Shown: piece after piece, positions 6,001 to 9,000 of the stretch
Layout of the letters: every line of letters starts with the position of its first letter
How positions within the stretch are numbered: the first letter of the stretch is position 1
Virus record (IMG/VR): IMGVR_UViG_2537562190_000018
Direction: 5' to 3' (one strand)
Source of the DNA: a virus
Taxonomy: Duplodnaviria > Heunggongvirae > Uroviricota > Caudoviricetes
DNA length: 41,714 bases
Program-made: the position numbers

Positions 6001-9000
6001 GTCAGCTCAATCGTGGCGGGTACCGCAGGTGCATTAATCCTGAACGTGGTGGTGGCCGGTTCCCCCTGCTGGCCATAACTGTTAATCGCCCTGACCGTCA
6101 GGGTGTATTCCCCCGGCGGCAGACCGCTGAAACGGTGCTCTGTATCCGCGGTGATGGCGGTGGTCACCAGACGGCTGTCCTCACCGCTTCCACTGGTCAG
6201 GCGCAGACTGAAGCGCACGCCCTTCACCACCCGCGGCGTGTCCCATTTCGCCTGCGCCAGATACTGGCCGTCAGCTGCGCTCACCTCCACCGTCAGGTGC
6301 TGCACTGCCGGAGGGATGACGCTGTTCAGGGTGCCTGACTGCGGCTCAAAGCTGGCCCCGTTATCCACGATGGCTTCCTTTTCCGGTACGTGCTGCACCG
6401 CCGTGATGGCAAAGGTGCCGTCCGTGTTTTCCCGGATGGAGACACAGCGGAACAGGCGACGACGCAGTGACGGCAGGGAGAGTCCCCATACACCGTATGT
6501 CGCCACACCATCAGGCAGGGTGCTGACCTGTATCCGGTCCGGCGCGGGGTGTGCAGTGATGGCCACGCTCACCGGCTTACCGCTGCCGTTAATCAGGTTC
6601 ACCGTGGCGGCACCTGTCTCCGGCAGGGTCACCTCACGGTCCAGTGTCAGGGTGCGGCTGGCGGCATCGATGGACAGGATACGTCCGCCGGTCATGGTCC
6701 CGGCATAGTCGTTATCACAGATTTCAATAATGTCACCGGGTGTGTGACGCAGCCCCTGTGACCCGAGCGTGAAATCCACCGTCTGCGTTTCCAGCAGTCC
6801 GGTCTTTATCACCCACAGCCCGGCACGGTGGGCCTGACCGCGACTGGTGCAACCGAACGCATCCATCTTCAGCAGGTTGCGCCCGTAGCGCAGTATGGCT
6901 TCCGGGTCTTCCACCAGTTCCGTGGAGGTCTGCCAGCCGTTCTGCGGGTCGGTGTAATTCACCTCCACCGCCGTGTGGCGGTCCTTCAGGGCGCTGAAGC
7001 TGTAGCGAAACCCCACGCCGTTATCATCCACCACCACATCGCTGTTGGTGTACGGCCACACCACATCCGACGGGCGGTCCTGAACGAACGTCAGCGTCTG
7101 GCCGCTCCATACCGGCATACAGCGCATCGCCGAGCAGAAATCACTGAGAACGTCCCACGCCTTACGCTGTTGTGACAGGTACGCATTAAAGGTCATCCGC
7201 GGCTCTGTGCCCCCGAAACCATCCGGGACCGTCTGGTCGCAGTACTGCGCAATGGCATACAGCGCCCATTTGTCCACGTCTGCCGCCCCCAGACGTTTTC
7301 CCATGCCGTAGCGCGGGTGAGTCAGCATGTCCCACAGGCACCAGGCCGGGTTGTTGCTGTATGCCGGTTTCAGGCTGCCGTCCCAGATGCCGCTGTACGT
7401 GCGTTTTTCCGGGTCATAGTTTGACGGTACCTGGATGATGCGACCGCGGATATGGTAGTTCACCGTCATCTGCTGACCGCCAAACTGCTCCGCATCCACC
7501 TGCAGCCCCACAATCGCCGTGTTCGGGTAGCACTGTTTCACATCGATGATTTCGGTGTATGACGACCACAGCGTTCTGTTCTGCAGCTGGTCCGGGGTGC
7601 TGTCCGCCGTCTCCCTGACCATCCGGATGTTAAAGGGGCGGGGAGGCAGATTATCCAGAATCACCGACGCCAGAAACTGCGAGGTGGTCTTGCCGTTAAT
7701 GGTGACATCCTTTTCCGTCACCCAGTTACCGTTACGCTGCAACTGAATCAGCAGTCGGACAGAAGAGGGATTACGGTCGCCCTTTGAGGTGGTCTCCAAC
7801 AGTGACTGCACCCCGAAGGTGACCCGCAGGCGGTCAATGTTCGCGGATGTAATGGTGCGCGTTACCGGCTTTGCCTTCGTCACTTCCACGCCCAGTGCGG
7901 TTTCCGCCCCGGAGGACTCAAAGCCTTCAGGTGGTGTCTGCTCCTGCTCCCCGGCGCGCCAGACCGCGGTCACACCATGTATCACAGGATTACCGTCCGT
8001 GTCCGTCAGCGGGGTTTTGTTCACCAGGATACTCTGCAGCCCCTTCACCGGACCTTCAATCGGCCCTTCACCAATGGCGTCAATCACGCTCATCATCTGC
8101 GTGGATTTGAGATTGTCCTTCGCCTCGCGCGGCGTGTGCGCCTTGCCGCCACCTTTGCCCATTGTCTCACCCTTTACTGTGATAACTGTTACGCACAAAA
8201 ACAACAGGCATCCCGGAGGATGCCTGTATCATGACTGAATAAAAATTCTGAATATCTTCACATTTTCACAAACTGACTGTGGCGCTAATAATTTCTCTGC
8301 GTTAATGTTTTTTGTCGTGACATAAGAATAATTCCTTACACTCAATCTTCGTAACGCTCCCGCAGTTCCTGTCCGTGAGCACTGCGGGATTTTTTCGCTT
8401 TTATGCCTGCCGCCCGATAACCACCATCTTCCCGTCACCGCCTTCATCACGGGTACTGATGTCCTGGGAGATTCGCCGGGAGCCAACCAGCATTTCACCG
8501 TAAGGCACCGGCATCGGGTTCCCCTGGGCAATCATGTTATCCAGCGAGGAAAAGTACGTGTTCTGTCTGCCGTTATCCGTTGCCCTGTATTCCGGTGTTT
8601 TTGGCTTCGGGGCAAGCATCTGTGCCACACCACCCAGTATCATGCTGGCCCCCAGTGAAAACAGCATCGTGGTGGCAGAAAAACCACCGGCTGCCAGGGC
8701 TGAACCCCATAACGCCATTGATGCCCCGGCAGTGAAGAAAGAGCCCACGATGGCTGCCGCCCCCAGCACAATCTGCAGTCCACCCTTTCCGGCCCCGGCC
8801 AGTCGCGGCACAATATGGATGACCGCCCCCTCACCCAGCTGTTCGTGAAGACGGGCGTACACCGCCTCCGGTGCCGTGTCCTCACCGCGAATACGTATCT
8901 GGTACCAGCCTTCGTTCATCTGACGGCGGAATCCCGGCACCTGTAACGACAGCGCCCGGATGGCTTCCGCTGCCGTGTTCACATACAGGCTGAGGCGGCG

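What the first reader, a model, noticed from the sequence alone, without database searches (positions are those of the whole stretch)
8163..8400. About 240-bp non-coding insert between I and J with a promoter-to-terminator unit
Lambda I and J are contiguous; here they are separated by AT-rich DNA with no ORF above 12 codons. The insert has a sigma70-like promoter (TTCACA-16-AATAAT, about 8265-8292) and, about 70-100 nt downstream, a strong terminator (8-bp GC stem plus T-run, about 8359-8396) on the plus strand, antisense to the tail operon. A second hairpin followed by a T-rich run on the minus strand (about 8185-8226) lies just upstream of the J RBS. This looks like an inserted small-RNA gene, a tail-operon attenuator, or both.
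Basis: seen in the sequence. Interest (0 to 1): 0.45.

Follow-up and report, generated by a model that had tools for sequence, protein, structure and literature searches.

The report
Prophage small-RNA gene between tail genes
The 238-bp gap between tail genes I and J holds a small-RNA gene that reads against the tail operon; it is a diverged copy of an Hfq-bound RNA (EcOnc22/23/24) already detected in E. coli O157 Sakai, whose function is still unknown.

Summary
Tail genes lie on the minus strand: the I stop is at 8401-8403 and the J start at 8162. The 238-bp spacer holds a sigma-70 promoter (8265-8292, +), a 9-bp hairpin plus U6 terminator (8358-8395, +), and an intrinsic terminator on the late (minus) strand (8195-8227).

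The plus-strand unit predicts a 97-nt RNA (8299-8395). It has no Rfam family and is unannotated in GenBank and RefSeq records. It is homologous to the I-J spacer of Sakai prophages Sp15, Sp14 and Sp11. Tree et al. 2014 found the Hfq-bound sRNA EcOnc22/23/24 there (about 85 nt on Northern, destabilised without hfq). Their probe and later RNase E-CLASH reads map to the same strand and the same segment.

The window copy is a diverged allele (body 65% identical, different central region). Across 73 spacer variants the -10 hexamer, its spacing, a CRP-like box and the terminator stem are kept, while the RNA body and terminator loop vary.

A minus-strand mini-ORF exists in some variants but is broken here and in half of them. 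The late-strand terminator is not part of the insert: lambda has one at the same place.

Verdict: a real sRNA moron, a new member of a known but uncharacterised family. Moderate interest.

The parts
8163..8194 (-). J 5' leader with the ribosome-binding site (AAGGGTGAG, 8166-8174) ahead of the J start codon at 8162
   Evidence: Sequence; RefSeq gpJ border in an identical copy
8195..8227 (-). Intrinsic terminator on the late (tail-operon) strand: 10-bp stem 8204-8227, loop UCCG, U-rich tail 8195-8203. It is the positional analogue of the hairpin in lambda's own 60-bp I-J gap.
   Evidence: z = -3.9. 15 distinct versions with 98% of cells paired; one C-G to U-A double change with U-G intermediates. 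Replaced by a non-homologous terminator hairpin in 41 of 126 copies. Lambda hairpin GAAACCGCC-UGCG-GGCGGUUUUGUC.
8244..8265 (.). Invariant box AATTCTGAATATCTTCACATTT, matching 14 of the 16 specified positions of the CRP consensus AAATGTGA-N6-TCACATTT. Its centre is 8254.5, about -44.5 from the predicted start. It sits inside the larger invariant block 8239-8265.
   Evidence: It is the only site with 2 or fewer mismatches in the window. It is invariant in 13 BLAST-derived spacers down to about 73% overall identity, and the only variable positions fall in the N6 spacer. Its role as a CRP site is inferred, not tested.
8265..8292 (+). Sigma-70 promoter of the sRNA: -35 TTCACA (8265-8270), 16-bp spacer, -10 AATAAT (8287-8292)
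   Evidence: The -10 position reads TATAAT, AATAAT, TATCAT, GATAAT or GAAAAT in 67 of 73 unique variants at a fixed distance from the box, while the 16-bp spacer sequence diverges.
8299..8395 (+). Predicted 97-nt sRNA, antisense to the I-J intercistronic part of the late transcript. It has a 5' GCGUUA, a U6 tract, an A-rich AAGAAUAAU stretch, a variable central region (UCCUUACACUC) and a conserved AAUCUUC. It is a diverged allele of EcOnc22/23/24.
   Evidence: The start is inferred as the G lying 7 nt after the -10. Fold z = -4.05. Homology to the Sakai Sp15 unit: box and promoter 75%, body 65%, terminator 72%; BLAST E = 1e-23 to the identical CP-1639 spacer. The Sakai RNA was shown by Northern, Hfq-CRAC and CLASH.
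8358..8395 (+). Rho-independent terminator of the sRNA: arms 8358-8366 and 8381-8389, a 14-nt loop, and U6 at 8390-8395. It ends 5 nt before the I stop codon.
   Evidence: The stem CCCGCAG/CUGCGGG is kept in nearly all variants while the loop varies in length and sequence; one variant carries the double change CCCACAG/CUGUGGG.
8302..8352 (-). Broken remnant of a late-strand mini-ORF (MKI...) that is intact in some variants. Here the start codon is ACG and the frame stops after 16 codons.

Best explanation
The extra DNA between I and J is a self-contained small-RNA gene of the 'moron' type, with its own promoter and terminator, inserted into the late operon and pointing against it.

In the lysogen the late operon is silent. 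Host RNA polymerase starts at about G8299 from the promoter at 8265-8292, possibly helped by a regulator bound to the invariant CRP-like box at 8244-8265. It stops at the hairpin plus U6 at 8358-8395, giving an RNA of about 97 nt. That terminator also keeps antisense transcription out of gene I.

By homology with EcOnc22/23/24, the RNA binds Hfq and acts in trans by base pairing through its central region. This region lies between the conserved AAyUCC and AAUCUUC motifs and is the most variable part of the RNA. Different prophages therefore carry different target specificities behind the same promoter and terminator.

The minus-strand terminator ahead of J is a separate, older feature of lambda-like tail operons. 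It would stop RNA polymerase that has not been modified by Q, and Q-modified polymerase would read through it.

What is shown and what is inferred:
- Shown here: the sequence elements and their conservation.
- Shown in the literature, for the Sakai allele only: expression, strand, size and Hfq dependence.
- Inferred: expression of this allele, its start site, action in trans, the CRP role and the function of the J-proximal terminator.
For: 1. The elements are present and fold better than shuffles.

2. The spacer family is widespread but unannotated. It occurs in 149 phage records and in 1730 of 5426 complete E. coli genomes, with up to 8 places per genome.

3. Conservation pattern across 13 BLAST-derived and 73 pattern-derived unique variants:
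- The box, the -10 hexamer, their spacing, the first transcribed bases and the terminator stem are kept.
- The promoter spacer, the RNA body and the terminator loop diverge.

4. Published experiments on the Sakai allele:
- Table S2 of Tree et al. 2014 (PMC4104026) lists EcOnc22 (Sp15), EcOnc23 (Sp14) and EcOnc24 (Sp11) as Hfq-CRAC peaks on the + strand, about 85 nt on Northern and destabilised in delta-hfq.
- In Sakai, Sp15 and Sp14 carry I and J on the - strand, with 240-bp spacers at the positions of these peaks.
- The complement of the Northern probe matches the plus strand of that spacer between the -10 and the terminator.
- RNase E-CLASH hybrid reads carry GCCTGAAAAATAACTCCATAACGTTAATCTTCA, assigned to EcOnc22 at old coordinates 2902717-2902749. 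The same string starts at 2902852 in NC_002695.2, so the coordinate offset is 135. This places the Hfq peak on the body of the predicted RNA. The offset is corroborated by the AgvB and AsxR positions.
- Predicted length in Sakai is about 90 nt, against about 85 nt observed.

5. The window unit is homologous to the Sakai unit and has a better -35 (TTCACA against TCCGGC).

6. The CLASH hybrids pair through the central segment (CCAUAACGUU with AACGUUAUGG in yjbJ). This segment differs in the window allele.
Against: - There are no expression data for this allele. The start site is only inferred.
- The RNA body has no conserved secondary structure beyond the terminator (RNAalifold).
- Targets are unknown. 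The CLASH support for the Sakai allele is 1-2 reads per interaction.
- The CRP-like box sits at about -44.5, which is neither the canonical class II (-41.5) nor class I (-61.5) position.
- The first 10 codons of a minus-strand mini-ORF show more differences at third codon positions (94/273/437 by position). A coding constraint on the other strand in some lineages is therefore not excluded.
Confidence: 0.72

Rival explanations
1. Cis-acting control of the tail operon. The antisense RNA pairs with the I-J intercistronic part of the late transcript, as lambda OOP RNA does at cII, and triggers RNase III/E processing. Together with the late-strand terminator ahead of J, this sets how much J is made relative to I.
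For: - The RNA is perfectly complementary to about 97 nt of the late mRNA.
- Its position between I and J is constant in all copies seen.
- A late-strand terminator directly upstream of J is kept in lambda and in two non-homologous forms.
Against: - The RNA ends 5 nt short of the I stop codon and lies more than 120 nt from the J ribosome-binding site, so it masks no translation signal.
- Late transcription is Q-antiterminated and should ignore the terminator.
- The Sakai homologue is made in uninduced cultures, binds Hfq and forms hybrids with chromosomal mRNAs.
- The body sequence is the least conserved part. That is irrelevant for cis pairing but typical of retargeted trans-acting sRNAs.
Confidence: 0.15
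2. The spacer encodes a small late-strand protein (MKI..., about 16-40 aa) expressed with the tail genes. The plus-strand RNA would be its antisense regulator, in a type I toxin-antitoxin-like or dual-function arrangement.
For: - 36 of 73 unique variants have ATG-AAG-ATT with an upstream GGAG-like motif.
- The Sakai allele has a 39-codon ORF.
- The first 10 codons differ mostly at third positions (94/273/437), with synonymous GAA/GAG, TTA/TTG and TTC/TTT changes.
- One depositor annotated such a CDS in phage PhiR12_1.
Against: - In the window the start codon is ACG and the frame stops after 16 codons.
- 24 of 73 variants have ACG, and 13 of 73 have lost the start through a 4-nt deletion.
- Homopolymer slippage puts the C-termini in different frames, giving lengths of 6-57 aa.
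- The peptides are not hydrophobic and give no PHROG match.
- The 3-nt periodicity could equally come from an A-N-N / U-N-N repeat in the RNA.
Confidence: 0.06
3. The spacer is non-functional mosaic filler, a recombination scar between tail modules, whose promoter- and terminator-like motifs are fortuitous.
For: - The spacer is mosaic, with partial BLAST matches 1-151, 77-233, 132-238 and 77-151.
- The consensus scans are not significant on their own.
Against: - Functional motifs are conserved selectively at fixed spacing while the sequence between them diverges.
- The Sakai homologue gives a discrete Hfq-dependent RNA.
Confidence: 0.05

Closest known systems
EcOnc22 / EcOnc23 / EcOnc24 (Hfq-bound sRNAs of E. 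coli O157:H7 Sakai prophages Sp15, Sp14, Sp11; Tree et al. 2014, PMC4104026; listed with 'targets unknown' in the 2021 review PMC7873438)
   Same: - Same locus, the I-J spacer.
- Same strand, antisense to the tail operon.
- Same invariant upstream box, and a -10 at the same distance.
- Same first transcribed bases, U-tract, AAUCUUC motif and terminator stem CCCGCAG/CUGCGGG plus a U-run.
- Similar predicted size: 97 nt here, about 90 nt predicted and about 85 nt observed in Sakai.
   Different: - The body is only 65% identical.
- The central segment that pairs in the CLASH hybrids (CUCCAUAACGUU) reads UUCCUUACACUC here.
- The terminator loop is longer here.
- The -35 is better here (TTCACA against TCCGGC).
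- There are no experimental data for this allele.
AgvB / AsxR anti-sRNAs and HnrS (other sRNAs of EHEC lambdoid prophages)
   Same: - Short Hfq-associated RNAs with their own promoter and intrinsic terminator.
- Placed at fixed 'moron' positions of the late region and pointing against it.
- Alleles share conserved 3' parts and differ in their pairing regions.
- The window also carries an AgvB-like gene (30009-30068) and an hnrS copy (24697-24764).
   Different: - Different loci: downstream of PR' for AgvB and AsxR, after the lysis genes for HnrS.
- No sequence similarity, and no Rfam AgvB or AsxR hit in the spacer.
- Those RNAs are shorter (51-66 nt).
[quoted passage not shown]
Lambda OOP RNA
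   Same: A short RNA (77 nt in lambda, from my own knowledge) made from its own promoter, against the direction of a phage operon, and ended by an intrinsic terminator.
   Different: OOP overlaps the 3' end of cII and acts in cis through RNase III. The I-J RNA overlaps no coding sequence, and its Sakai homologue binds Hfq and chromosomal mRNAs.
Morons of lambdoid phages (Juhala et al. 2000, as cited in PMC4104026)
   Same: An autonomous transcription unit (promoter, gene, terminator) inserted between two genes that are nearly adjacent in lambda, and expressed from the prophage.
   Different: Classical morons encode proteins and usually point with the operon. This one encodes an RNA and points against it.

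Membership tests
EcOnc22/23/24 sRNA family | Located in the I-J spacer of a lambda-like prophage, on the strand opposite to the tail genes | tested here: met
   Window. Sakai Sp15 and Sp14. The probe and the CLASH reads map to the plus strand.
EcOnc22/23/24 sRNA family | Sequence homology of the transcription unit | tested here: met
   BLAST against the CP-1639 spacer, which is identical to Sakai Sp15: 73.5% identity over 83% of the query, E = 1e-23. By segment: 75%, 65% and 72%. The upstream box and the terminator stem are shared.
EcOnc22/23/24 sRNA family | A discrete transcript of about 85 nt that binds Hfq and is destabilised without it | not testable with these tools
   Shown only for the Sakai allele. 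For the window allele only the promoter, the terminator and a predicted 97-nt product are available.
Hfq-dependent trans-acting sRNA | Rho-independent terminator with a U-tail of at least 6, plus internal U-rich or A-R-N stretches | tested here: met
   9-bp stem plus U6. U6 lies at 8308-8313 and AAGAAUAAU at 8324-8332.
Hfq-dependent trans-acting sRNA | A defined seed and validated targets | not tested
   Only 1-2 CLASH reads exist for the Sakai allele, with yjbJ and ECs5349. No complementarity of 12 nt or more was found inside the window.
AgvB/AsxR anti-sRNA (Rfam RF02702, RF02703) | Match to the covariance model | tested here: not met
   No match in 8000-8600 even at E up to 10. The AgvB model hits only 30009-30068.
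Type I toxin-antitoxin / small-protein gene with antisense RNA | A conserved intact small ORF opposite the RNA | tested here: not met
   Window: ACG start and a stop after 16 codons. 37 of 73 variants lack an ATG, and the C-termini are frame-shifted. No PHROG match.
Regulated transcription attenuator of the tail operon | A terminator in the operon's sense strand upstream of the regulated gene | tested here: met
   Terminator at 8195-8227 on the minus strand.
Regulated transcription attenuator of the tail operon | An alternative antiterminator structure, leader peptide or ligand-binding domain that makes termination conditional | tested here: inconclusive
   None was seen in the fold of 8192-8240 or in Rfam, and the mini-ORF is not conserved. 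No dedicated search for alternative pairings was made.
CRP-dependent promoter | A CRP site matching TGTGA-N6-TCACA | tested here: met
   14 of 16 specified consensus positions match at 8244-8265. It is the only site with 2 or fewer mismatches in 41.7 kb, and it is invariant across variants.
CRP-dependent promoter | Site centred at -41.5 (class II) or at -61.5, -71.5 and so on (class I) | tested here: not met
   The centre at 8254.5 is 32.5 bp upstream of the first base of the -10. This gives about -44.5 if the start is G8299. The start site itself is only inferred.

The most novel reading that the evidence does not exclude
The I-J module may be a 'seed-swapping' sRNA cassette. One invariant regulator-bound box (CRP-like, so tied to carbon or stationary-phase signals) and one invariant terminator would frame a central pairing region that recombination exchanges between prophages. 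An E. coli strain carrying up to eight such prophages would then deploy a set of co-regulated sRNAs with different host targets. In some lineages the same DNA would also encode a late-strand micro-protein.
Probability: 0.2. Interest if true: 0.6.

Novelty: new member of a known kind. Interest (0 to 1): 0.35.

Why it matters
Prophage sRNAs of pathogenic E. coli (AgvB, AsxR, StxS, HnrS) rewire host regulation and virulence. The I-J sRNA family occurs in about a third of complete E. coli genomes, often in several copies. It is absent from Rfam and from genome annotation, and nobody has assigned it a function. Three things follow from this analysis.

- Its architecture is now defined: box, promoter, variable pairing region, terminator.
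- The Sakai RNA EcOnc22/23/24 turns out to be one allele of a diverse family.
- This window carries a different allele, which gives a concrete and testable set of constructs.

The analysis also shows that an intrinsic terminator just ahead of J is a conserved feature of lambda-like tail operons, lambda included. This feature seems not to have been studied.

Tried and rejected
- Rfam, at gathering thresholds and at permissive E-values: no family in the spacer.
- RNAalifold on 42 unique RNA variants: only the terminator is a consensus structure. The 5' stem GCGUUA/UAACGC of the window copy is not conserved.
- Minus-strand mini-ORF: rejected for this window and as a family-wide feature. No PHROG match.
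- Identity with HnrS (EcOnc10-12): rejected. HnrS lies after the lysis genes, and the window has its own copy at 24697-24764.
- Shared seed with HnrS and pairing to the hha ribosome-binding site: rejected. Only CUUC is shared, and unconstrained duplex energies are no better than shuffles at a useful level.
- EPEC PasA-D sRNAs, EsrF and Esr055: unrelated loci or sequences.
- Complementarity of the RNA body to other parts of the window: only A-rich 10-11-mers, at chance level.
- Start-site data from Sy et al. 2020 and the sequence from the HnrS paper: supplementary files are not held.
- Scan of one genome per species for the box: apart from chance hits, only E. albertii and three short contaminant-like contigs. 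The module appears restricted to Escherichia prophages.
- Covariation in the late-strand terminator: weak. One double change, and 24 of 500 shuffles reach the observed score.
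Full report
**What is in the sequence**

The tail genes lie on the minus strand. The I ORF ends with its stop at 8401-8403, and J begins with ATG at 8162. An identical copy in E. coli E2865 is annotated with gpJ and the tail assembly protein at exactly these borders, and with nothing between them.

- A sigma-70-like promoter on the plus strand: TTCACA-16-AATAAT, 8265-8292, matching 10 of 12 consensus positions.
- A plus-strand intrinsic terminator: a 9-bp stem (8358-8366 with 8381-8389), a 14-nt loop and U6 at 8390-8395.
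- A minus-strand intrinsic terminator: a 10-bp stem at 8204-8227, a 4-nt loop and a U-rich tail, lying 35-40 nt upstream of the J start.

The predicted plus-strand RNA 8299-8396 folds at -26.9 kcal/mol (z = -4.05). The late-strand hairpin region folds at -19.9 kcal/mol (z = -3.9). No shuffle of 200 did as well in either case. Taken alone, the motif scans are not significant.

**Comparison with lambda**

In lambda, I ends at 15444 and J starts at 15505. The genes are therefore 60 bp apart, not contiguous. That 60-bp gap itself contains a late-strand hairpin followed by a T-run (GAAACCGCC-TGCG-GGCGGTTTTGTC) just before the J ribosome-binding site.

The minus-strand terminator of the window is thus the positional counterpart of a lambda feature. 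The DNA that is truly extra is the segment from about 8239 to 8395.

**Distribution and conservation**

The spacer matches 149 phage records, nearly all Stx-converting or other lambdoid E. coli phages. It also matches 1730 of 5426 complete E. coli genomes, with up to 8 places per genome. It is almost never annotated.

The matches are mosaic (query positions 1-151, 77-233, 132-238, 77-151). The segment 77-233 (8239-8395) behaves as a unit.

I aligned 13 spacers taken from BLAST hits with 73-100% identity. I then collected 126 further copies from IMG/VR with the invariant block as pattern, giving 73 unique spacers. The following are conserved.
- A 27-bp block at 8239-8265.
- A -10 hexamer at a fixed distance from the block: TATAAT 28, AATAAT 21, TATCAT 16, GATAAT 1 and GAAAAT 1 of the 73 unique spacers.
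- The first transcribed bases, GCGTTA.
- A T-run.
- The motifs AAyTCC and AATCTTC.
- The terminator stem CCCGCAG/CTGCGGG plus its T-run.

The following diverge.
- The 16-bp promoter spacer.
- The -35: TTCACA 39, TTCTGT 17, TCCGGC 10.
- The central part of the RNA.
- The terminator loop, which varies widely in length and sequence. One variant has the double change CCCACAG/CTGTGGG.

This is the pattern expected of a promoter-to-terminator RNA gene whose pairing region is free to change. RNAalifold finds only the terminator as a shared structure.

A scan of one genome per bacterial species found the module only in Escherichia albertii, plus three short contigs that look like E. coli contamination. 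I therefore take it to be an Escherichia prophage element.

**Link to published experiments**

Rfam has no family for the region. Table S2 of Tree et al. 2014 (PMC4104026), however, lists three identical Hfq-CRAC peaks in Sakai.
- EcOnc22: Sp15, chromosome 2902714-2902774, + strand, about 85 nt on Northern, destabilised in delta-hfq.
- EcOnc23: Sp14.
- EcOnc24: Sp11.

In the current Sakai record, I and J of Sp15 and Sp14 are on the minus strand and are separated by 240-bp spacers at those places. The spacer is identical to the CP-1639-type spacer of my alignment.

The complement of the authors' Northern probe (GGGAGAGAACGATGAAGATTAAC...) matches the plus strand of that spacer, between the predicted -10 and the terminator. 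The match is 23 contiguous bases plus 6 more; the rest differs in the extracted PDF text.

The RNase E-CLASH tables of Waters et al. (PMC5286369) contain hybrid reads whose sRNA half is GCCTGAAAAATAACTCCATAACGTTAATCTTCA, assigned to EcOnc22 at 2902717-2902749. In NC_002695.2 this string starts at 2902852, so old and new coordinates differ by 135. The positions of AgvB and AsxR give 135-146.

With that offset the Hfq peak covers 2902849-2902909, the body of the predicted RNA. The predicted start is near 2902836 and the U-run is at 2902920-2902926, giving about 90 nt against about 85 nt observed.

A 2021 review still lists its targets as unknown (PMC7873438). A search for the three names finds no later study.

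**How the window copy relates to the Sakai allele**

The window unit is a diverged allele. Box and promoter are 75% identical, the body 65% and the terminator 72%.
- Its -35 is better than that of the expressed Sakai allele.
- Its terminator loop is longer.
- In the CLASH hybrids the Sakai RNA pairs through CCAUAACGUU, a perfect 10-bp match to AACGUUAUGG inside yjbJ. Only 1-2 reads support this.
- The window allele reads CCUUACACUC at that place, so it should have other partners.

I found no partner inside the window and could not search a host genome.

**The invariant block**

The block matches the CRP consensus AAATGTGA-N6-TCACATTT at 14 of its 16 specified positions (8244-8265). It is the only site with 2 or fewer mismatches in the window. 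The only variable positions of the block fall in the N6 spacer.

The expressed Sakai allele has a poor -35, which suits an activator-dependent promoter. However, the centre of the site lies about 44.5 bp upstream of the inferred start, not at -41.5 or -61.5. I give CRP control a probability of about 0.3-0.4.

**The mini-ORF on the late strand**

Some variants carry ATG-AAG-ATT... on the minus strand (MKI..., 16-54 codons). One depositor annotated such a CDS.

Of the 73 unique spacers, 36 have the ATG, 24 have ACG instead, and 13 have lost it through a 4-nt deletion. Homopolymer slippage puts the C-termini in different frames. In the window the codon is ACG and the frame closes after 16 codons.

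The first 10 codons do vary mostly at third positions (94/273/437 pairwise differences by codon position). A coding constraint in some lineages therefore cannot be excluded. It is not a property of this window or of the family as a whole, and no PHROG family matches.

**The terminator ahead of J**

Fifteen distinct versions of the CAGGCA-type hairpin keep 98% of cells paired. One position switches between C-G and U-A with U-G intermediates. The statistics are weak: 24 of 500 shuffles reach the observed covariation score.

More telling, 41 of 126 copies carry a non-homologous hairpin (ACCCCGGUAUC...GAUACCGGGGU plus a U-rich tail) at the same place, and lambda carries a third.

A late-strand terminator between I and J thus seems to be maintained. 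Its role is inferred only: stopping polymerases that are not Q-modified before J and the downstream cargo genes.

**Mechanism and verdict**

The most likely reading (0.72) is an sRNA moron. It would be transcribed from the prophage by host polymerase, terminated just before gene I, bound by Hfq, and active in trans through a variable central region. It is a new allele of the EcOnc22/23/24 family.

The rivals are:
- a cis role on the late transcript, 0.15;
- a small protein with an antisense RNA, 0.06;
- non-functional filler, 0.05.

The finding is correct and useful for annotation, but it is not a new kind of element. Interest is 0.35.

Noticed in passing
window 24697-24764 (+); the identical stretch is 24603-24964: The stretch is 100% identical to the Sakai Sp10 region that holds EcOnc11 = HnrS, the 66-nt prophage sRNA recently shown to repress hha (PMC13502914). 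The window therefore carries an hnrS copy just after the lysis genes. Rfam 15 does not flag it.
   Followed up: partly
window 30009-30068 (+) and 30070-30283 (-): A convergent sRNA pair lies at the PR' moron site. One is an AgvB-family anti-sRNA that only just reaches the Rfam threshold (56.6 against 56 bits), because its 5' domain differs from AgvB. The other is a strong STnc100 match (190.7 bits); in Sakai the published EcOnc27 partially overlaps STnc100.
   Followed up: no
window 32902-33017 (+): An ALIL pseudoknot, the frameshift signal of IS3-family transposases, scores 114.6 bits. An IS element therefore sits in the early or regulatory region of the prophage, close to the cIII thermoregulator element at 34561-34619.
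   Followed up: no
lambda NC_001416 15445-15504 (locus L181 746-805): Lambda's own 60-bp I-J gap contains a GC-rich hairpin followed by a T-run on the late strand (GAAACCGCCTGCGGGCGGTTTTGTC), directly before the J ribosome-binding site. The position of this terminator is conserved in the EHEC phages, although the sequence is not.
   Followed up: partly
L060, L142 (same site, inside the sRNA promoter spacer after ...TTCACAAACTGA) and L012 (IS66-family, J side): Several copies of the spacer are interrupted by insertion sequences. Two independent contigs share the identical insertion point between the -35 and the -10 of the sRNA promoter, which would silence the RNA.
   Followed up: no
L015, L030, L069 (IMG/VR loci): The same invariant box is followed by a more diverged and longer cassette. 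Its -10-like TAGATT lies 16 bp further from the box, and it has a different terminator (CTCCCG...CGGGAG plus T6). The box would then lie near -60.5, close to a class I CRP position.
   Followed up: no
window 8229-8531 (-): A mechanical 100-codon ORF with a TTG start begins inside gene I in another frame and runs through the whole sRNA module. It is not conserved, because the variants differ by indels.
   Followed up: partly
Sakai coordinates in the literature: Coordinates in Tree et al. 2014 and Waters et al. 2016 refer to an older Sakai record. They are about 135 bp lower than NC_002695.2 at 1.27, 1.94 and 2.90 Mb. Anyone mapping EcOnc features onto the current RefSeq record must shift them.
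   Followed up: yes
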